64,000 bases of DNA from Mytilus edulis (Eukaryota), in contig NC_092344.1 of NCBI RefSeq assembly GCF_963676685.1, forward strand, positions 76,818,001-76,882,000, read 5' to 3'. Below, in pieces: positions 1,953 to 60,572 of the stretch (positions are counted from its first letter, which is position 1; each line of letters opens with the position of its first letter). The translations under genes were made by a program, and so were the position numbers. The notes under the pieces were generated by a model. The model saw nothing but the letters and a program-made list of their open reading frames with translations. It did not search any database and was not told the origin of the DNA.

Positions 1953-2432
1953 GTAATTAGTCTTTAGTCTATTTACTCAATTGTCGCATACACAAAGAAA
2001 CACACACATACTGATGCAACGATTTCATATATATCTGCCGAAGTTCGATAGTTATCTCCAGGTACTCCGCCAATTACAGCCGCCATAAAAAAAAAGTCCG
2101 AGGTACAGAAAGTTGTGCTAGAAACTTATAACTAATCAACCTTAAATAGTTATTATGGACGTGAACGTGGTATTATGGACGTATGCGCTCTAAATTATAG
2201 AGAGTCACACATATGAAGTATCAACAAAAAGAAAAAAAACATTTACCACTTGAGTTTTAAATGAAACCAATCCCCACTATGATGCTTTATTAACTCGCTT
2301 TAAATTATCAGCAGTGTAAATTGCAAAATGAGTTAAGTGAAGCATCATAAAGTTTCACAAAACCTAACATAAATTGAACAAGAAAATAATACATTTGAAA
2401 TTGGTAACTTACAGGATTTTGTATAATTTCAG

Positions 2433-2997
2433 AATATCGAATCTTGTTTTGAAACTGTACATGTATTCTCTGCAGTAGCGGAAGCAAAGACAGAATGGAG
2501 TTTTATAGAGAATATTGTTCTTAATGTCCTGGATGGCTCTAAACAGTCTAATTGCGACTGTTGTATATATGGGTATCAAGGAACACCTATTTATCGTGTA
2601 AATGCTGTCGTGAAAGAGACCTATATCCATAACAGTAAATTTACTGACTTAATAGCAAGACAATTCCAGTGTTCTGTAAGAAATATTGGTTTTAGGATGA
2701 TCAATATACAATTAATTGGAAAAATGGAATCATGTAGTATTTCGTATAATGTTCATCCTGTGTTATACCCAGAGATAAAAGAAAACGGATTCGGAATATG
2801 TGCAAAAATAGCTTACAATTATCTAAATCCATTGCACCTTATTGAGTGGTTCGAATATCAGAAAATGATGGGTGTAGACATGGTTCTTATATCTTTACAA
2901 TCCTTAAATAAAGATGCGTATAAAGTTTTGAGATATTATGAAAGAGAAGGGATTACAACAATAATTTCTTTTCCAAATGATATGCCTGGGAAATTAG
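2433..2997 (+). CDS. GT92-family glycosyltransferase, exon 2
   Basis: ATTTCAG| acceptor; open frame NIESCFETVHVFSAV...FGICAKIAYNYLNPLHLIEWFEYQKMMGVD...VLRYYEREG; G|GTAAGT donor (phase 1). The LIEWFEY..MMGV and VLRYYE.EG motifs are typical of GT92/DUF23. Confidence 0.88.
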
Positions 2998-4215
2998 GTA
3001 AGTACTTGAAAAATATTTAAACAACGACAACAGTAAATTCAATAATCACTTTCAAATTAGGTTTATGTTTCTTCCGAAAATATCATGTCACGTACCTACA
3101 AGGAATGACATAACTAATGACAGATAATTAAATGACAAATGACATACACGCAAAGAATATCAACTGAATCATCTGCATATGTATAATATTTTGAACATGG
3201 ATATATTATACATGGTGTGTACTACACACTACAAATTCCTACAAAAGAGGGACAGGAATGTAGATGAAAAACAACACAATGCAAGGTAGACAACAACAAA
3301 ATAAAAAAAAAGAAAGACCAAGCAGCATGGCCCTAAATAAGAAAACTGCTAGATAATGGCCAATAGCAGCTAAAAACAAATTTATCTGTAAGGTCATTTT
3401 TTTAACCACTCCAAAATATAATTAGCATTGCATAGTATATGAATATACATTCTCATAAACATAATAGACAAAAGATCGAGGGTTTGTTATGTAATTTAGG
3501 TTTAGTTTGAATCAACAAAAGTGACGTCAATAATCATAATAAAGTTGAGATAAAAGTTGATTAAAGGGATGTTCATAATATAAAAGATTTGGTAAAAAAT
3601 CGAAAAAATGACGTCTATAATTGAAAGGGCTTTGACAGTGTTCGAAAGTTAAGAAAAATAAAAATAACGGAATATTAAATAGTTGCACTAAAGTCTATTA
3701 CTATCGTTAGCTGGGAAACGTTTCTAAATGCTTTTAATTGCAATATAATAAAAAAAAATGAATGGTATGTTCGGTAGTTTGAAAATAAATAACGTGACTT
3801 ACAAGGTATTGAAATAAATAACTTGACAAGTCTTTTAATCCGTTATATAAAAGCTATTTCAATGTATGAGATGGCACAAGGTTCTACCAAAATTCGTTTT
3901 TCTTTAATATTATTTAAAAAAAAATAACGAATCATTCATACCCTACAAAAAGACCAATGCGACCACTAGCATTGACTTATGCGGTAATTGATTTATTGTA
4001 CTATGAATATATTTCAATGTCTTAAAAAATACACTTAAATCTAAACACAATACTAGACTAGAAAAGACAAATCTGTGATTAATCAGGCGGTATAAAAACA
4101 GCACATACATGTAGCAATGAGGTATAAAAAATGTCTTTGAGTCTACACTTATTATACAAGTACACTTATTATACAAGTTAGGAACTACATCGTTTAATTG
4201 TAATGTGTTATTTTA

Positions 4216-38782: not shown

Positions 38783-41320
38783 AACTGTGAATCATCGGAG
38801 TTTAGATATGTTCCCTATGGCCATGTTATTACAGAGGACCTCAATATCGTCCAGGACAGAGAGGTTAAAAATTTTTTGAAAAAAGGACCAGAATATCGTC
38901 CTCCATCTAAAATAGATTGGAAAGAGTGTCGTCAAGTCACCAAAGATGCTCTTTTCTCGTTTTGTAAAAAAAAGGTGTAAACGTGAAAAATCTGATAAAA
39001 AATCTCCTGATTCTTATTTAAATAAATGTATGAATGTGGTAGATAAGAGAATATCACATTTTGAAAATAATTTAGAAGTAAATAATAGAATACATAATAC
39101 ACCTATTTCCAGAATAAGAAATAAACTTCAAATACTTTCAAAGCGGTTTGTGTTTGTACCGGCCGATAAAGCAGCCAACAATGTGGTGGTGGTATGTAGT
39201 AAATACTACACGGACGTTCTTAAGAAATTTTAAATTCATCTACATTTAAGTCCATCCGCTCCACAGAGAGTCATATAGTAAATAAGCATATCACAACTAC
39301 ACCAAAGCTTAAGGCTTCTTTTGATCATATGAAGGTCCCTACTATGTATTGGCTACCTAAACTACACAAAAAAACATTTAAATATCGTTTCATCTCGGTC
39401 TCTAGTAAGTGTTCTACAACTATTCTTTCAGTGCTCTTAACTAGTTCATTAACTACTATTAAAGAGCTTATCATAAACTATTGTAATAAAATATATGAAC
39501 ATAATAGTATAAACCATTTTTGGATGTTTTAGATAAATTACATGCTTATGATGGTCCTTTTGATTCTGTTTATAGATTTGATTTTTCTACTCTTTACACT
39601 ACACTTCCAAACTATCTTATTAAACAAAAGTTTTCCTATTTAATTAAATGGTCGTTTGGTAAAGCTGAATGTAGATATATTTGCTGCAACTCATTTAAAG
39701 CCTTCTTCTCTAATGAGAAGGTAAATATGCTAGATATACTTACTGGAGGTGTGATGAGATGATTGAAGCTATTAATTTTCTCCTTGATAACATTTATGTA
39801 CGTTTCGGCAACAAAGTTTATCGACAGGTTGTAGGCATCCCCATGGGCACTAAGTGTGCCCCTTTGATAGCAGACTTGTTTTTGTACTGTTACGAATCAC
39901 AGTTCATGACTAAGATCAGTAAAGACGCGTCGAAATTGCATTTAATTGATAAATTTAACAACACCTACCGTTATCTTGATGATATATTTTCGTTAAATAT
40001 TCAAGAATTTTATCAATATACTGCGGAAATTTACCTCAAGGAACTTACTTTAAATAAATCAAATTTATTCGGTAATAACTGTCCTTTCCTGAATTTAGAT
40101 ATTTCGGTTTTAAACGGGAAAATCCACACTAAAATTTACGACAAAAGAGACGATTTTTCGTTCCCTATTGTTAATTTTCCATTTTTAGATGGTGATGTTC
40201 CTTTGGGACCATCTTACGGTGTTTATATTTCACAACTTGTTCGCTATGCCCGTGTCTGCTGTGACGTTTTTTATTTTAACGAACGCAACCTATGTATTAC
40301 TGGTAAATTATTAAACCAGGGATATCGTTACCATAAATTACTTAAAACCTTACTAAATTTTTCCATAGATATAAAGATTTGGTTTTGAAGTTTGGTTGTA
40401 CTTGTAGAAAACTTATTTCAAACGGGATGGCACATCCTCATTTTTACGGAAATGTTGTTAACCGTGCCCGGAAATTTAGAAATGATCCATGTAAACTTGT
40501 CGCTCCTTTAAATAAACTTATTCTAAAAGGTTACCCATTCAACACTGTAATAAGATCATTGAATATTGTTTTTATTGGTATAAATATTGATTTTGTTATC
40601 AGTAAATAAAAAGCTAACTAAATATACATATTCATGGAACTACAATCTGTCGATACCTGTAACTTGCCATTGCATAAGGTCATGTTTTTCTCTGGCTATT
40701 TATGACGTCTTTACACTAAATCCATTGGATGTTGAATGTGTACGAATTGATAGTTTAGTCTTAGTTGCATGATTTTTTTATTAGTTGTTAGTTGCTTTGA
40801 ACAAGCTGTCAGATAACTGCGAGTGCTCTCAGATTTGTTCATTGTGTCTTTATGTGTCGGGATGTAAAGGTACCGGGCCACGTCCACTGTATTTTTGTCC
40901 ATCTGATGAGTTAAGCCTTTTTCAACTGATTTTTATAGTTCGTTCTTATGTTGTACTGTTATACCACTGTCCCAGGTTAGGGGGAGGGTAGGGATTCCGC
41001 TAACATGTTTAACCCCGCCACATTATTTATGTATGTGCCTGTCCCAAGTCAGGAGCCTGTAATTCAGTGGTTGTCGTTTGTTTATGTGTTACATATTTGT
41101 TTTTCGTTCATATTTTTTTACATAAATAAGGCCGTTAGTTTTCTCGTTTTAATTGTTTTACATTGTGTTATCGGGGCTTTTTATAGCTCACTATGCGGTA
41201 TGGGCTTTGCTCATTGTTGAAGGCCGTACGGTGACATATAGTTGTTAATTTCTGTGTTATTTTGGTCTTTTGTGGATAGTTGTCTCATTGACAATCATAC
41301 CACATCTTCTTTTTTATATT
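38783..41320 (+). mobile_element. Penelope-like retroelement (Naiad/Chlamys-type architecture), 5'-truncated and frameshifted
   Basis: Frameshifted ORF 38783-40609: NCESSEFRYVPYGHVITEDL, KGPEYRPP, FVFVPADKAANN, MYWLPKLHK, FDFSTLYTTLP, RQVVGIPMGT.CAP, RYLDD, YDKRDDF, YISQLVRY. No GIY-YIG domain follows the RT, consistent with the N-terminal-endonuclease clade. About 700 bp of 3' region. Confidence 0.92.
40694..40760 (+). promoter_or_regulatory. SECIS-like element (type II) in PLE 3' UTR
   Basis: GGCTA-TTT-ATGA-CGTCTTTACACT(12 nt)-AAA-TCCATTGGA-TGTTGAAT-GTGTACGAAT-TGAT-AGTT-TAGTC: helix I, UGA/GA core, ~10-bp helix II, unpaired AAA, mini-helix III. Starts about 85 nt after the ORF stop. Confidence 0.65.
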
Positions 41321-48711: not shown

Positions 48712-51700
48712 TGTTGTGAACGTGTTTTGGTACATGTTCATTGTCCGGTATTTGGATAAACCGAGATGTTTTGACTATAAAATTCAGTGTTAAACGTAAT
48801 TTAGTCAATTCAAAATTATGATATTATTGTGATCACGTGGGACTTTATTAGTTTGTATAATTGCTCAAACCTGAGAATGCTTAGTTAATTAGAGAGGCAT
48901 ACTTTTAATAAATTCACCAAAGTTCATTACAGGTTTTCATGTACGAGTTATCCTTTCCTGAATAGTAAATATCTCAATCTAGGAATATTTAAATAATAAA
49001 CCGGTTAAATGTATGTTCATTGTTTATTGAATATGGTAAATATTGTATGAAGTATTTTAGTTACTTTCAGTTCCTATTGATATGAATTCCGCGAGTCATT
49101 TGGTTTTAATGGAAAAAAGGCTTGTTTTGGCGTAAACCGTCACTTTGAAAAACAAACTCAGGAAGCAACGCTTGACTGCCCAGCTGATCGGATGTTTTTC
49201 TGATAGCAAAGCCTTTTTTTATAAATTGAGGATCCATTTAGATTGAATATTCAATTCGCGAAAGTTTGGTTAAAGTACGTATGTGTATTTTATTTACAGA
49301 CTTCCAGTATTTATTTTGTCATAAAACGGTGAAATCCGTGACGGATATTTTCTGGAATCTGGGTCAATGTTATTCAAAATTAGAGAGTTTCGAAATCTTG
49401 ACATAAATTCAAAAAATATTTTTGTCCGCTGTTTGTTCCGATTTTAGGTGTGAAAGTGGGAACGCTTCCATCCATAGGGTAAAAAAATAACCAATAACTA
49501 AAATAAATTTACTATTTTTCCGACTCTTAGGTAAAGATTCTATCACATCTAATGTAACTCTATCCATGGGATGACACACAACAAAATTATGCAACGCAAC
49601 TCTTGGTTTCCAATCTAAAGCTTTAGTTTGGTTACAAACAGTACAGTTATATACATGTAATTTTATTTCTTCATTCATTTTGTACCAGTGGAAGCTTGTT
49701 CAATTTTTCAAGCGTTTTATGCATTTCAAAATGTGCAGAGGATAATGTATCATGACAGGTAGTAATAACTTCTTTCTACAAAATTTTAGGAATCAATAAC
49801 TGATATGAGACCTCGGATGTTTCTGGATAGGCACGCTTTTGATATAAGACCACATGTTTCCTATCTGGAAGATTAAAATTAGGCCAATATTTTCTTGCTG
49901 CTTGACTCGAAGATACAGTATCGTCTCTGCGAGGTAGACAAATTTTATCAAACCATACATATATGCATGTATTGGCTTTGATCATTATCTTTCTTTTTTT
50001 ACAAAATCAATATTTGAGTCACTGTCCAATCAATTTGACTGATTGAATCTCTTATTTTGACTTCTTGTCACCACCATGACGTTTAAATTACTTCCGACTT
50101 TACCTAACTAAATCAACTAGTTATCTACAGAATCTTTAAATTCTGACCATTCGTCAGCAATTTCAAGGCATTCCTTACAATGAGGATCAATTTACCCCTT
50201 GTTTTTGTGTGTACATAATAAAATATTCCCGTATTTTCTGGACACTGCAGCCGCATTTTGATGTTTTATTCCAGGTCTATGTTCAACATCAAAAGTATAT
50301 TGGGACAAAGTCATCAACCAACGAGCCAGATGTCCCGGTGGATATTTGAAAGCAAAAAGTCATTTTAATGACACATGATCTGTACGTAACAGAAATTTTC
50401 TACCCTAAAAATAATGCCAAAATTAATGAATGAATTTGACCATTACGAGCAGTTCATGCCTGGTTACACTATATATATTTGTTTTGTCTTGTCACGTTTT
50501 TTCGAGCCACAAGCATTATCTTCTCCCTGTTATTTTGAATCTGGGAAAGGAAGGCTCCAATGCCTACATTGGAAGCATCAATGTCAAGAATATAACCACC
50601 ACGTGGACGCGGATTAGCCAAAACTGGAGCTTCATACAGTGCCTAACTGACACTATATTGACCAGTTAAAACAAACGTCCTTTCGAGTTAATTAGCTTAT
50701 TGGAGAATCTTCATCGCTGAACCCTAATATAAACTGACGATAATATTTACATTATCTAAGAAACTGTGAGACTTATTGAACATTCATTGGAACTTTCCCT
50801 TTTTTTATGACTCAACTATTTTAGGATTTGGGTGAATACCTTTTTCACTCACAATGTGACCTAAATACACCACTTCATATTCAAGGAATTCACATTTTGA
50901 AGTTGAGGCCCAGAATTGTGTAGACGTCGTAGAACTTTACTAAATTGAACAAAATGATCGTCAAGGTTGAACTATATATTATTATATTGTCCAGATACAA
51001 AAGAAGTGTTTTCCACTGTAAACCCCTAAATATTAATTACATACAACGTCGAAAAGTATAAGGAGCATTGTTCAACTCAAATGGCATTTTAGTGTACTCA
51101 ATTGCAAACAATCCATATTTGGTGATAAACACTGTCTTGTGACGGTCCTCTTACGCTATTTGTAACTGCCAGTAACCTGACTGTAAATCACAAACCGAAA
51201 ACAAACCGATGCATTTGCCAAGCAATCGAGACAGGAAGCTATTTCAAGACGACGATACGCATCTTTAATTCTACTTTGGATAAATATCCTGTAATCAATG
51301 CGCCACCTCACAGTCCAATATCCAGTCGATATTACATTATTTCTCCCATCAAAAGATTGGGGTTGGGTAAAAGGTCTGGGTCGAGGTCCCAATTGCTATT
51401 AACGCGTTTTGACATTTCAAATATTTCAACAACTGAGGTTTTTTACTGCCAAAAACCAAATCAATCAAATCTCTTCAATATCAAAATTAATACTGGCAGT
51501 GTTCACTACTTATATATGTAACCAATAGGTCTCACTACTAAAAATATAAAATGTTCACTTCTTATAGATTTAATCTGTAGTTTTAACTACTTGTAAATTT
51601 AACCTGTAGTCTTCACTACGTATATATGTAACTTACCAGTCATGTTATCTATAGTTTAAACTACTTATATGTGTAAACTGTAGTTTTCACTTCTTATAGA

Positions 51701-54103: not shown

Positions 54104-54871
54104 TCTTGTATGATTTTAAATTTTAGATCTTGTGTATATATTGGAATTTAATATGACGTCCGTTATCACTGAACTAGTATGCAATTTTGTTTAGGGGCCA
54201 GCTTAAGTACGGCTCCGGGTGCGGGTGTGTCTTGCTGCATTGAAGACCCATTGGTTGCTTTCGGCTGTTGTTTGCTCTTAGGTCGGGTTGTTGTCTCTTT
54301 GACACATTCCTTATATCCAATTTTGAATTTCATGGTATAAAATTTAACTTAAATTTTCCAGTTCAATAACACTTAAAAATATTAAAAGGCTACGCAATGA
54401 TTATATGTACTTTGTTTATAAACTAGATTCCTAAGAATGTCCTCGGCAGGCTGATAAACGAATCTTTATTGACTGCTTCTGAGTGTTATCACATGCCTTT
54501 CTGTTAATGTTCGTGACTCTTATCACATGCAACTTCGTGCATTTCTGGAAATTTGTTAAACATGATGATGACATGGCTGCGTTTGTCGAATCTTTGAAAA
54601 ACGACTCCATAGTTAATACTTTTCACAAATTTATTGAGGAGCAACAATGAATTAAGATTAAACATGTTTTGAAAGACATATCACATGCTGAGTCCAACTC
54701 TAGACAGGTATCAACCCAAACAACTTCAGGCATAAATAAAATGCCAGAAATTGTGAATTGTCCATGACAATTAAAGAATAAAAAAATATTTCCGGGGACA
54801 ACCATCACATGCAAGGTAACAAAGAATTTTTCAAACTTAGAACATGATAATTGTTGTGAAAAGATATGTAT

Positions 54872-57007
54872 AGGTTGCATTTTTGTAAATATTGGCAATG
54901 CAATTTCCCATAGGAACTCCTTTTACGGCTAAAACTGTACCACTTTTACTATGAAGTTTTGAAAAAAATCTTATCCTAGAATTGAAAGTTCATATGCACC
55001 ACAATTTTTTTCAAAGGTCAAAATATAGGGCTGTGCGGCATATTTTCAACGTTTATATGCCCTGAACTTCTCAGAGTTTAAACTTACACTAATTTTCTTA
55101 ACTACCCCTACCTCGAATGAAAGGTTACCACAGATTTCAATGTAAACAATATGCACGTGTTTATTTACTGGTAACATTCCCAAGTTCTGTCTCTGCGATA
55201 TGGAACACAGAGAGCATAACTGGGAACCAGTATGTAAACAAAATTAATTTTCTATGAATATTCAATTACTCCCCAAAAGAGGCGTGTTTTTGAGAAACAG
55301 CTGTATTTACAAAGTGCAACCTATACAGACATTTATTGAAATAGAAAACTCTCTAAAATCAGTTTTTCTCACATTAATACTCATTTATCAGAATTAAAGT
55401 CTTAAAGAAATCACTGTGTATGCTCTAATTTTTTCTTTACTATACATCTTATACCCCCTCCCCTGTATCAATATTTTAAAGAATTTGAAAACAAGACTTT
55501 AATTATTGCCAGCTTACCCTATTTGCACATTTTCTGATAAAAAATGCCTAGAACCTGTTAAAAACTGTTTTGATAACATATTGAAAGCATATCAGAATAT
55601 CATAAATGTAATGTTTAGCAGTCAAGCATTACAACATTCAAGATTATATAAAGTATCCAATCCAGCCTCTATCTCCAGTCCACATCTTACTGTATGCCTA
55701 TTTGTCAATTAAAGAACACATTTTCTGCCTCAAATGGTCAATTTAGAATTCTTGTCACAACAGTATCATCTATAACCATATATCTGACACAATTTAGCTA
55801 ATATATATACTAGAAGTGTTCAAACAAAGCCATATTTGCAATAGTTGTATGTATGCAGAAACCAGTCTGAGATATAAATTCACTTAAAATGTTGTAGAGA
55901 TGACTGCTAACATCTGATTTTTGCATAACTTCTAAGCATAGTTATTGTTTTCTATATCAAAAACTTTAAAATCATAAAATCATAGCATTTACAAGTTAAA
56001 TTATTTGTTTTATGATCAAGGGGGTAGGCAATTTTCTATGTTTTTTGCCCCTGGGGCCTCAAATTTCCTAAATCATTCTGCTGTTTCTAGCAATTTTGAA
56101 TATTTAGTACATATTCAGGATAGAACACACTATTGTGAGTTTTCTTGAGATATTTTTGTTTTTCTAGCTTGTATTTATTATGCCGTGGTGACAAAAAAGC
56201 AGATTTAGGTGTTGCGGTTTACTTTTGGGTTATCGAAAGGACACAAATACCCCATAAATAATATTCCGGAAGGATCTATGAGTTTCAATGACTGCGAAGA
56301 GTTAATATAGGCACTTCTGAACAATTTAACTTACAAATATGCAAATATTATGATTTAATTTTGTATCCAGGACTTTAAGTAAACTATGCATACTGTAAAC
56401 TGTTAATTTATACTGAGTCATCATATTTAAGGCCCAGGATTCTATCAATCTTCATTAAATATTTATAAAACTTCTTATTTGAGTTAATTTCTTTAAAATC
56501 TGTGAAATAATGCAAATTTGGTTAAATTCTGAATGTTCCCCTTTTTTACCCTATATAGGTTGCATTTTTGTAAATATTGGCAATGCAATTTCCCATAGGA
56601 ACTCCTTTTACGGCTAAAACTGTACCACTTTTACTATGAAGTTTTGAAAAAAATCTTATCCTAGAATTGAAAGTTCATATGCACCACAATTTTTTTCAAA
56701 GGTCAAAATATAGGGCTGTGCGGCATATTTTCAACGTTTATATGCCCTGAACTTCTCAGAGTTTAAACTTACACTAATTTTCTTAACTACCCCTACCTCG
56801 AATGAAAGGTTACCACAGATTTCAATGTAAACAATATGCACGTGTTTATTTACTGGTAACATTCCCAAGTTCTGTCTCTGCGATATGGAACACAGAGAGC
56901 ATAACTGGGAACCAGTATGTAAACAAAATTAATTTTCTATGAATATTCAATTACTCCCCAAAAGAGGCGTGTTTTTGAGAAACAGCTGTATTTACAAAGT
57001 GCAACCT
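54872..57007. mobile_element. Composite DNA element: two identical 451-bp TIR-bounded direct repeats around a 1.23-kb core (non-autonomous KolobokP-like)
   Basis: 54872-55322 and 56557-57007 are identical by eye; each begins AGGTTGCATTTTTGTAAATA and ends TATTTACAAAGTGCAACCT. Junctions are TATA|GG..CC|TATA and TATA|GG..CC|TAAA. Confidence 0.85.
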
Positions 57008-57086
57008 AAAATGCTTGTAATATCAATAAAACCAATTAAATTTAAGAAATTTGTATTTGGTTGTTTGTAAATTATAAACTTAGATT

Positions 57087-58022
57087 GGTCTGATATGAAA
57101 CATGCCATGTAATAATCTAAACTTATCATATATTTAGTAGTACATTTAAATACAGTTGTTTTAAATATTGGATTTATAGTCTGCTGTTTAATCCGTATCG
57201 CTCAACTTTGATGCAGACCCTTTATCACACCCTTTATCGAATGTCTACAGTTTATCACACCCTTTATCGCAGGCCTACCCTTTATAACTACATTACACGT
57301 ATATTTCAGAAGAATCCGTTATTTTAATTGGAAAACAAGCATTGTGCGTCATACTTAAATTCACCTTCATATCCTAATGAAGTTTAACATTCATGATGTT
57401 ACGTGCTTTCACAAAAAGCTGACACTCAGTTTATATATTTATAAAGAAATAAATGGGAAAAAAAACGATTTTAAAGTATCAATGTAATTATGCGTATTGA
57501 ATGCTTACTTTCTTAGGGTTGTAAAAGCGTTGACCGTGCGAACATCTAGATAAATATAAAGTTAAAACAAAGACACATTTTAATAGTTCTTGTCTGTATT
57601 CCTTCTGCTGAAGTATATGACAAAAAGATCATTACATGTCATTGTTCATATTAAATTCTTTATCGGCCCTCGTTCATAATATCAACCCTCGAACCTGTGC
57701 CTCTTAGACTGATATCATGACCTAGGGCCGATAAAGGGTCTGATATGAAACATGACATGCAATAATCTATACTTATCATATATTTTGTAGTAAATACAAT
57801 AGTTTTGAATATTTGATAAATAGCCTGCTGTTTAAACCGTATCGCTCAACTTTGATGCAGACCCTTCATCACGCCCTTTATCGCATGTCTTCCCTTTATC
57901 ACACCCTTTATCGCAGGCCTACCCTTTATAATAACATTACATGTTTGTAGCAGAATAATCCGTTATTTTAATTGGATAACAACGCTTGTGCGTCATACTT
58001 TCATTCACCCTCATATCCTAAT
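57087..58022 (+). repeat. Diverged ~290-bp direct repeat (57087-57378 and 57737-58022)
   Basis: Both run GGTCTGATATGAAACATG...CCGTATCGCTCAACTTTGATGCAGACCC...CATATCCTAAT; the second is preceded by the hairpin at 57631-57763. Confidence 0.85.
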
Positions 58023-58437: not shown

Positions 58438-59590
58438 CAGTATACTTGTTATTAAATAGTTTATTGTTACTATTTTTTATATTGATAGGTTTTATTCAGA
58501 ATGTGTTTTTTATACTTCGACTAATTGTGTTTATTTTTCTAAATATAGTAACACAGCTAGATTTTTGCAACGTCAATGTCATCATGAAACACTTTCGACA
58601 CAATCAGGGGTGATTAAGGGATGAAAATAATTCTAATATTTGTGAACGATTTAAAAAAAAACTATCAATGTATTGATTTAATTTAGAACAATTTTAGGTC
58701 AATGTCGATTGGTCAAACGCCCTCTCGCAGTTTCACAACCTCGTGCAAAAAAGTTATATTTTTCAGACATTGACCTAATAGTATAACATAACTAAAGAAG
58801 GAAAAAGACAAATAAACACCAAAAATACATTAAATCAAACATTTCTATGCAATACAGGTGCTTCGGATGAATAATTAAGCAGTGCCTTTATATGATTAAG
58901 CTGTTAAAACAAGGCAAAAATAAATCTGAATGTGACCAAGGTGCTTTGGATCAGTAAGCAGGTACGACATACTCACCGATTTAAATATATGATAAAGCGT
59001 TTAAAATCTGGAAAAATCCGTATCACATCCCGTATCACCCGTGACCAATATCACTCCTCGGGTCTTAAGGCCCTGGGGCAGATTTTGGTATCTCGGGATG
59101 AAAGGAGATTGTGAGTCAAACACACTCACCATTTCGTGTATTCCGGCAGAAACTTTTAATATCAACTTCTTCATGAAAAAAAGTATTAGAAAAACCCAAC
59201 CGTCATGGTAAATTAAAAAAGGGGACGACCGAAACCAAATGAACGGCTATATCGGCCACTTCGACACAACAGTTAAAGTTATGACTTGATACAGGCATTT
59301 TCGAAAAAAATTGTGGATTATAACGTAATATTATAGAATGCAACCTATGATATAACAAATATTAGTATATGAATACCCAAACCACCTAAATATAATGGAA
59401 ATAAGAAATATAATGACATGGTAGGATTTTTCATCCTTGAAAGACCAATAAAGTAGCGTACATATTTAAATATCATTCACAATTTGAACGTGGTAAGCAG
59501 TATCTTAGTAATTTTGTTAATTTGGTCTTTTTTTTATAACGTCGATATTCATTTCATATATCTTATTGTTTTTCTTTAATTTCATTGCAG

Positions 59591-60572
59591 ATATCAATTC
59601 TTCATTTGTTTCCTGTGTGGATTTTTCATATTTCAACTTACTTACTTACTGAAAGATGTACAGTACTCGATAGATTTTGATAAACAAAAACCATTTTGGA
59701 ATAATACTGCCAAAATTTTATCAGATATCAAAGAAACAGGAAGATCTAACATCATGCCTTTGAACTCATTTTTACTGAATAAAGTATTTAGGGAAGATCC
59801 GATGAAATTGTTTGAAGCATTTGAATCCATTCAAATATTGTTTATTGTGAAATCACATATACTTAATTTTGGTAAACGAGAAGCTATTCGTCAGACGTGG
59901 GGAAATGTAACAAAACTTCGAATAAAAACTATCTTTGTCCTAGGTCACTTATACAATAATGACCATTTTGCTGATTTGGAATCAAAACTACATAAGGATA
60001 TAATTCAACTAAACATAGAAGATAAATACGAAAATTTAGTTTATAAAACTATTTATGCATTGCTTTCCTTATCGAAACTAAATTTAAGAACTGAATATGT
60101 ACACTGTGTAGATGATGATCGCTTAGTTAACGCAAGAAATGTTTACGATATAGCAAGACAAAACATTGCACAATCAGATACGGTTATGTTAGGATTTATG
60201 GTTAATTTGTCAAGACCAAACAGATCAATGAACTCAAAAAATTATGTTTCATTCGAGGATTATCCTTTCCTTTATTTTCCGTCTTATATTATAGGAGGAA
60301 CTATATTAACAAATATGAAAACGATACACATACTTTCAATTGGGATAGAATATGTACGATTAATCCACATAGAAGATGTATATATTGGAATGGTTGCAAC
60401 AGCTTTCAAGATAGAATTGCAACATCATTCAGGGTTTCTTCCCTTTAAAAAACCCGTTTTAATGTTTAACAGTTTTTTATCATCCCCTGGATATGATCAT
60501 GCATATACAATATTAAGAGACTGGAAACTTATTGATCAAAACGAAAATATCAATACCAAACGTCAACTTTAA
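59591..60572 (+). CDS. GT31 beta-1,3-galactosyltransferase / Brainiac-like glycosyltransferase, main coding exon
   Basis: TTTCATTGCAG| acceptor; the frame is open upstream of the track ORF and gives a TM segment (YQFFICFLCGFFIFQLTYLL). Motifs IVKS..NFGKREAIRQTWG, IFVLG, ESKLHKDIIQ..EDKYENLVYKT, VDDD, YPFLYFPSY, IEDVYIG. About 347 aa with the upstream exon. Confidence 0.93.

What the first reader, a model, noticed from the sequence alone, without database searches (positions are those of the whole stretch)
54872..57007. Very young composite transposon: identical 451-bp direct repeats, each with its own TIRs
Seen: two apparently identical 451-bp units, each bounded by ~19-bp TIRs, with GG...CC ends in TATA/TAAA context and an internal hairpin (CCCAAGTTCTGTCTCTG..CAGAGAGCATAACTGGG). 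They enclose 1234 bp with no long ORF. They lack TG..CA ends, PBS and PPT, so they are not LTRs. Established: this architecture, like a bacterial composite transposon, is described for KolobokP DNA transposons, which are common in molluscs. Inference: a recently mobile non-autonomous derivative whose core is either cargo or a deletion product. A possible minus-strand terminal exon (TTTCACAG|..FKEINSNKKFYKYLMKIDRILGLKYDDSV*) lies at about 56409-56499. The outer 4-mers differ (TATA vs TAAA), which may bear on the transposition mechanism.
Basis: partly seen in the sequence, partly recalled or inferred. Interest (0 to 1): 0.7.

Follow-up and report, generated by a model that had tools for sequence, protein, structure and literature searches.

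The report
KolobokP transposon rewrites its target site
This is a young, gene-less copy of a known shellfish jumping-gene type (KolobokP); in about three of ten young sister insertions one end carries the element's own TATA instead of a clean copy of the target, which likely means the element arrives with four-base sticky ends, as piggyBac does.

Summary
Confirmed: two identical 449-bp repeats (GG..CC, imperfect 19-bp TIRs) enclose a 1,236-bp non-coding core. It is one copy of an abundant non-autonomous KolobokP family: 1,137 exact repeat ends, 191 repeat-core junctions, plus solos, multimers and core-core arrays. Independent MITE insertions and assembly duplication are excluded. The closest autonomous family found (transposase plus His-Me nuclease, matching KolobokP-5_MyEd by eye) shares the extreme termini but only 64% of the repeat, and has no detectable homology to the core, so it is a likely helper, not the parent. 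The proposed exon looks neutral.

The TATA/TAAA mismatch is informative. Of 41 young insertions, 12 have unequal flanking 4-mers, all 12 with TATA on one side (point mutation predicts 5%). In 4 of 4 testable cases empty sites show TATA is the intruder, once replacing TGAA. Core-core junctions keep a single TATA. Best reading (inferred, about 55%): a piggyBac-like 4-nt overhang carried into the new site. Rival: later recombination copying the inner TATA. I found no printed account in the searches run; this scan noted similar junctions on other genomes. Verdict: new member of a known kind with a testable mechanistic clue.

The parts
54869..54872 (+). Left outer 4-mer TATA; likely replaced the target's TAAA
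   Evidence: 9 of 13 paralogous empty sites read TAAA, 1 reads TATA
54873..55321 (+). Left long terminal direct repeat (LTDR), 449 bp, GG..CC, imperfect 19-bp TIRs
55322..56557 (+). Non-coding interior (INT), 1,236 bp, TATA at both tips; shared by the family
56558..57006 (+). Right LTDR, identical to the left
57007..57010 (+). Right outer 4-mer TAAA, the likely original target
55179..55225 (+). Imperfect hairpin inside the LTDR (second copy 56864-56910); not conserved in the autonomous relative
56408..56497 (-). 29-codon frame behind an AG; no coding constraint seen, rejected as a functional exon
54472..54868 (.). Old dispersed host repeat (71-90% alike copies) that the element interrupts; continues at 57011 to about 57087

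Best explanation
This is a gene-less KolobokP DNA transposon (repeat-core-repeat) from a family with over a thousand repeat copies, likely moved by the transposase of a related autonomous family, and it likely enters new sites with a four-base TATA overhang that can overwrite one copy of the target. Shown: the architecture, the family, solos, multimers, core-core arrays, a T-N-N-A target, and TATA replacing the target 4-mer at one end. Inferred steps: (1) a KolobokP-5_MyEd-like transposase binds the shared termini of either one repeat or the outer ends of two; (2) it cuts so that 4 nt of donor flank stay on each end, mostly TATA because inner junctions, arrays and the commonest target all read TATA; (3) the donor's complementary overhangs rejoin without a scar, leaving one TATA between two cores; (4) at a non-TATA target each end is either trimmed and filled (clean duplication) or ligated as a mismatch and later fixed as TATA, at roughly 0.3 per end. 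Confidence: identity as KolobokP about 0.97, this helper family about 0.6, the overhang mechanism about 0.55.
For: Family: 1,137 exact right ends, control 0; 191 repeat-core junctions; 57 core matches at 96-100% from 40 of 763 candidates scored. Helper: L081 has 459-bp repeats, PF20700 (E 2.5e-43) and PF05551 on the opposite strand (E 4.6e-16); its repeat is 301/467 identical to ours, last 17 and first 7 nt identical; 15 of 74 transposase matches cover the whole 591-aa frame without a stop. Flanks: 12 of 41 young insertions unequal, 12 of 12 with TATA on one side, 6 left and 6 right, 14 of 15 mismatches central; point mutation predicts 5.4%, P=1e-6. Empty sites give the non-TATA 4-mer in 4 of 4 testable cases, including TGAA in 3 of 3 sister copies of L220's host. 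Two TATA/TATA insertions sit where empty sites mostly read TAAA (12 of 12 hits; 6 of 9). The match to the core tip stops at 4 nt in 11 of 12. Solos and monomers are affected alike (7 of 14, 5 of 11). Family A shows the same in 2 of 5 copies. 17 of 17 core-core junctions in four arrays keep one TATA; 26 such junctions at 9 loci. piggyBac's 4-nt overhang and seamless excision: PMC7351741, passages.
Against: No biochemistry exists here; all mechanism is read from junctions. The sample is not random (best hits plus the first 100 exact hits on one contig), and many empty-site hits come from overlapping loci. One of 13 empty paralogues of the window site reads TATA. Both-side TATA cases could be variant targets picked by preference; L032 reads TTAA/TTAA where 9 of 9 empty sites read TAAA, which TATA carry-over does not explain (a TTAA-flanked donor would). 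In older copies only 4 of 8 unequal pairs have TATA on a side. Random donors would give non-TATA overhangs more often than 0 of 12, since 15 of 28 clean duplications are not TATA. PMC9587614 reports 1-5 bp one-sided deletions after repeat excision, which is not seamless. The helper's repeat is only 64% alike, and a closer parent is not excluded (150 of 542, 74 of 844, 114 of 1,476 candidates scored).
Confidence: 0.7

Rival explanations
1. The element integrates with an ordinary clean duplication; later recombination between two repeats (single-strand annealing, unequal crossover, or repair after a His-Me nuclease cut) copies the inner TATA over an outer 4-mer.
For: Explains why the intruder is always TATA (12 of 12), since inner junctions read TATA; solos and multimers show that repeat-repeat recombination is common; PMC9587614 proposes such crossover.
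Against: Monomers are affected as often as solos (5 of 11 vs 7 of 14, Fisher p=1) and 0 of 3 counted multimers are affected (small numbers); two-base replacements (TGAA, TTAA) lie beyond the end of homology; monomers with unequal flanks do not have visibly more alike repeat pairs (0-3 differences vs 0-5).
Confidence: 0.25
2. A circular intermediate joins the two ends across a 4-bp TATA spacer (IS3/IS256-like copy-out, or a circle opened by the His-Me nuclease); opening it gives the same TATA overhangs without a hairpin step.
For: PMC9587614 proposes circles with a spacer of TSD length; one head-to-tail repeat junction with a TATA spacer exists in the genome; a fixed spacer source fits the TATA-only bias.
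Against: Only 1 exact head-to-tail junction among 1,137 ends; no circle was observed; copy-out would not by itself explain scarless loss of a repeat between two cores. It shares its end product with the best explanation and cannot be told apart from genome sequence.
Confidence: 0.2
3. The unequal 4-mers are ordinary point mutations after insertion.
For: A few per cent of duplications should be hit at this age; L038 and older cases may be such.
Against: 12 of 41 against 5.4% expected (P=1e-6); all involve TATA; 14 of 15 mismatches central; empty sites show TATA is gained, not lost; two-base changes occur.
Confidence: 0.03
4. Two independent MITE insertions around host intron DNA, or an assembly duplication.
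For: Solo repeats are the commonest form; the two repeats are identical.
Against: The core is multicopy and bounded by the same repeats on many contigs; left and right flanks are contiguous in empty paralogues.
Confidence: 0.01

Closest known systems
KolobokP non-autonomous families (Kojima and Bao 2022, PMC9587614), e.g. KolobokP-N1_MyEd (2,070 bp, LTDR 663) and KolobokP-N5_CGi (1,738 bp, LTDR 445)
   Same: LTDR-INT-LTDR, about 450-bp LTDR class, RR..YY ends, short TIRs, 4-bp TSD, TATA at both INT tips, solos, multimers, INT-INT joints with one TATA.
   Different: 2,134 bp with a 449-bp LTDR matches no row of Table S1 part 1 (part 2 not read); the LTDR's first 9 bases occur in Data S1 only inside three unrelated interiors. 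INT-only runs reach 8 units here against 4 in the paper's text.
KolobokP-5_MyEd / KolobokP-3_MyCo (autonomous; Data S1 and Fig. S2 of PMC9587614)
   Same: The genome's family A matches them by eye in length (4,533 vs 4,532 and 4,518), LTDR ends and INT start; our LTDR shares its terminal 7 and 17 nt and several inner blocks.
   Different: Only 301 of 467 LTDR columns identical; no detectable INT homology; no coding capacity.
piggyBac (mechanistic analogue only; PMC7351741 passages)
   Same: 4-nt palindromic target preference, scarless joints after loss, and, by inference, 4-nt flank overhangs on the excised element.
   Different: Different transposase family (PF20700 here), GG..CC ends, loose T-N-N-A target, composite layout; hairpin chemistry not shown for Kolobok.
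Bacterial composite transposons; TRIM retroelements
   Same: Two like units around a core; solos and shared-repeat tandem arrays.
   Different: No gene in the repeats; no TG..CA ends; partner genes are a DDE transposase and His-Me nuclease, not a reverse transcriptase.

Membership tests
KolobokP | Two long terminal direct repeats of about 450 or 660 bp | tested here: met
   449 bp, identical
KolobokP | Each LTDR has its own short TIRs and 5'-RR..YY-3' ends | tested here: met
   GG..CC; 7 bp perfect, 17 of 19 gapped
KolobokP | 3-5 bp TSD | tested here: met
   28 of 41 young insertions have a clean 4-bp TSD, 1 a 5-bp; this copy has a 4-bp duplication by spacing with one mismatch
KolobokP | Solo LTDRs, multimers and INT-INT joints | tested here: met
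KolobokP | LTDR homology to a family coding DDD/E transposase and opposite-strand His-Me nuclease | tested here: met
   L081: score 221 vs best of 100 shuffles -43; PF20700 and PF05551
Autonomous KolobokP | INT encodes transposase and nuclease | tested here: not met
   longest frame 69 aa; no tblastn or tblastx hit
KolobokP-5_MyEd family proper | LTDR and INT ends derived from that family | tested here: not met
   64% LTDR identity to family A, no INT match; published consensus compared by eye only
LTR retrotransposon / TRIM | TG..CA ends | tested here: not met
   GG..CC; PBS and PPT not tested
piggyBac-like chemistry | Hairpin ends opened to 4-nt overhangs | not testable with these tools
   only junction statistics

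The most novel reading that the evidence does not exclude
KolobokP transposases, unrelated to piggyBac's, excise with four-base flank overhangs and ligate them into the target, so they leave scarless donor joints and rewrite non-TATA targets to TATA; the fixed TATA at the core tips would be what lets a repeat, a monomer or any stretch of an array leave cleanly, and would keep the composite layout working.
Probability: 0.5. Interest if true: 0.62.

Novelty: new member of a known kind. Interest (0 to 1): 0.42.

Why it matters
The element itself is an unlisted member of a lineage described in 2022. The junction pattern matters more: the 2022 paper states that the molecular pathway of KolobokP is unknown. 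The unequal duplications give a direct, cheap prediction (a marked donor flank reappears at the new site), and this genome holds both an abundant young substrate and stop-free candidate transposases. If true it would be a second, independent scarless cut-and-paste chemistry in animals, of interest for transposon tools, and it would mean TSD-based annotation undercounts these insertions.

Tried and rejected
Closer autonomous parent: not found among 30 nuclease loci, 20 wider regions and 9 transposase regions, nor as a second shared interior beside fetched repeats; the searches scored only part of their candidates. Core origin: no tblastx hit at E<0.05 against 29 loci, one 32-nt blastn hit; no Rfam match. 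Terminal exon: of 58 distinct cores 9 have an in-frame stop and 2 an indel, 8 synonymous vs 22 other changes, best phmmer E 1.6; my first frame check was out of frame and is discarded. Hairpin as a conserved signal: not kept in family A. Orthologous empty allele: not shown. Contigs of two runs of one study reach from the left flank 26 nt into the repeat, under the tool's 31-letter bar, so not counted as bridging. No RNA run was examined. The pattern was mistyped and its zero is void (corrected). The piggyBac paper on non-canonical sites (Li et al. 2013) and Mitra et al. 2008 are not held: I saw titles only, in a reference list; two searches and passage search 87 gave no substitute.

Full report
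Observation. The two units are identical, 449 bp from GG to CC (54873-55321, 56558-57006), and enclose 1,236 bp that begin and end with TATA; the outer 4-mers are TATA and TAAA. The TIR is perfect for 7 bp and 17 of 19 with one gap. The core's longest stop-to-stop frame is 69 aa and Rfam finds nothing.

A family, not an accident. The unit search scored 40 of 2,272 candidates, all 99-100% alike. A 22-nt right-end pattern has 1,137 exact matches, control 0; the repeat-core junction has 191; the core gave 57 matches at 96-100%. Fetched loci show monomers with this core, solo repeats, shared-repeat multimers, one-sided forms and core-core arrays. In 12 of 14 fetched paralogous loci of the interrupted host repeat the left and right flanks are contiguous. 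Independent MITE insertions and assembly duplication are thereby excluded. Raw reads of one public run (about 3 in 100 read, 1,934 million letters) cover the repeat about 2,000-fold against 0-20 in low-copy flank, in line with a copy number in the low thousands.

Identity. I read parts 1-5 of 6 of PMC9587614 (abstract to start of references), Table S1 part 1 of 2, Additional file 2 parts 1-2 of 7 and search hits in files 3 and 4 (file 4 is cut in store). Every defining structural feature of KolobokP is met. Non-autonomous families, solos, multimers and INT-INT joints with one TATA are described there. Data S2 lists unnamed mussel LTDR pairs 1.6-1.75 kb apart at about 91% to other consensuses, so such elements were in the authors' data. 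Our repeat's start is not among their LTDRs by motif search; Repbase could not be checked.

Partner. PF05551 gave 150 matches of 542 candidates. The repeats beside one group are 67-78% alike to ours in local hits. Its copy L081 is 4,533 bp with 459-bp repeats, a 591-aa PF20700 frame and a His-Me nuclease frame downstream on the other strand. Global identity of the repeats is 301/467 (score 221, best of 100 shuffles -43), with the first 7 and last 17 nt identical; the interiors share nothing detectable. By eye it matches KolobokP-5_MyEd and KolobokP-3_MyCo, which points to a mussel genome. Fifteen of 74 transposase matches span the frame without a stop. No closer family appeared in the 59 loci compared, but only part of the candidates was scored. 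Cross-mobilisation by this family is inference.

The unequal 4-mers. From fetched loci I kept insertions with both outer ends intact and inside the locus: 86 chains, 74 after merging shared flanks, plus the window. Dropped were chains cut by a locus edge or lacking an end, among them the L175-176 array (clean TCTA by eye), and L206, merged with L148. Among the 41 at least 97% alike to the window's repeat: 13 clean TATA, 15 clean other, 1 five-base, 12 unequal. All 12 have TATA on one side, 6 left and 6 right; 14 of 15 mismatches are in the two central positions; L038 is atypical. With 0.70% mean divergence among 85 young repeats, point mutation predicts 5.4% (P=1.2e-6). Among the 34 older insertions 8 are unequal and only 4 have TATA on a side. 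All 53 clean duplications start with T and 52 end with A.

Which side changed. Empty sites read TAAA at the window site (9 of 13, one TATA, two out of register), TTTA for L037 (9 of 9 hits, partly overlapping loci) and L016 (7 of 13, none TATA), and TGAA for L220 (3 of 3 sister copies, one identical over 26 nt each side). TATA is the intruder in 4 of 4; the other 8 had no empty site in my data. Clean non-TATA duplications agree with the commonest empty site in 6 of 7 cases with hits; L032 does not (TTAA vs TAAA). L013 and L148 are TATA/TATA where empty sites read TAAA in 12 of 12 and 6 of 9 hits. A per-end overwrite rate of 0.29 predicts about 2.4 such cases among the young set. The match to the core tip ends at exactly 4 nt in 11 of 12, at 6 in L196. 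Two of five family A copies show the same pattern, and I saw several such lines by eye in the paper's Figs S2-S3. Its main text has no 'mismatch' or 'hairpin' and uses 'overhang' only for I-PpoI.

Mechanism. Core-core joints keep one TATA (17 of 17 in four arrays; 26 exact at 9 loci). Scarless loss plus flank bases appearing at new sites is what piggyBac's chemistry yields: a cut 4 nt into the flank, a 4-nt overhang on the element and complementary donor ends (PMC7351741, passages). That piggyBac mutates non-canonical sites I take from a title in that reference list and from recall. I commit to overhang carry-over at about 0.55. A circle with a TATA spacer gives the same product and is the paper's own suggestion; later recombination copying the inner TATA is the main rival, weakened by equal rates in solos and monomers but not excluded at these numbers. 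The TATA-only bias needs donors to be mostly TATA-flanked, which is unexplained beyond inner junctions and arrays.

Exon and hairpin. The 29-codon frame is broken in 11 of 58 distinct cores and changes look neutral (8 synonymous, 22 other). The hairpin is modest and absent from family A's repeat.

Novelty. 'KolobokP' occurs in 2 held papers; the 2026 review says the model awaits experiment (passage). Searches pairing Kolobok with hairpin, excision or imperfect TSD terms found no account of this pattern; a Xenopus Kolobok paper has no 'excision' passage. Subscription journals and Repbase Reports were not searched. I stated the overhang reading before seeing earlier notes; the scan had noted interior-like spacer bases beside insertions on other genomes (e1-9930450, e1-9518377, e1-9938817), which is agreement, not independent proof. 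Verdict: new member of a known kind; interest 0.42, 0.62 if the mechanism holds.

Noticed in passing
G000:C6:57193635-57203934 (L125, L126); G000:C2:63254547-63273396 (L127-L129): Arrays with long runs of cores lacking repeats (8 in a row on C6), 1,232-1,233-bp period: a satellite in the making.
   Followed up: partly
L226:1064-1963 (G000:C4:87.21 Mb): Two repeats head to tail with a TATA spacer, the only exact case found.
   Followed up: partly
L220:1921-4050: A copy inserted inside another Kolobok transposase frame; the host itself is duplicated about 2.8 Mb away.
   Followed up: yes
L148 and L206; L016 and L170: Pairs of insertions at the same position of the same host repeat, suggesting target hot spots.
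   Followed up: partly
L032 (G000:C5:56.92 Mb): A three-core array inserted in a repeat found beside His-Me nuclease loci; outer TTAA/TTAA, empty sites TAAA, inner right junction TAAA.
   Followed up: partly
L154-L160 (G000:C1:24.3-27.7 Mb): One older solo repeat copied seven times with its host segment.
   Followed up: no
L034 (G000:C12:13463286-13465418): Sister copy whose repeats are identical to the window's while the core differs by 1.1%, hinting at repeat homogenisation or core exchange.
   Followed up: no
e.g. G000:C2:54.19-54.23 Mb, C7:17.72-17.76 Mb, C6:79.99-80.02 Mb; L086-L088: Many His-Me nuclease loci in tandem arrays of 3.2-4.8 kb period, and nuclease-bearing elements of about 2.6 kb without a long transposase frame.
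   Followed up: partly
window 59580-60572 (+); 2427-3020 (+): Galactosyltransferase (PF01762) exon 2.6 kb downstream of the element; glycosyltransferase 92 (PF01697) exon.
   Followed up: no
window 57087-57378 and 57737-58022; 39717-40388; 49409-49699: Two diverged copies of a repeat with a 30-bp tandem unit; weak reverse transcriptase and integrase zinc-domain fragments below Pfam cut-off.
   Followed up: no
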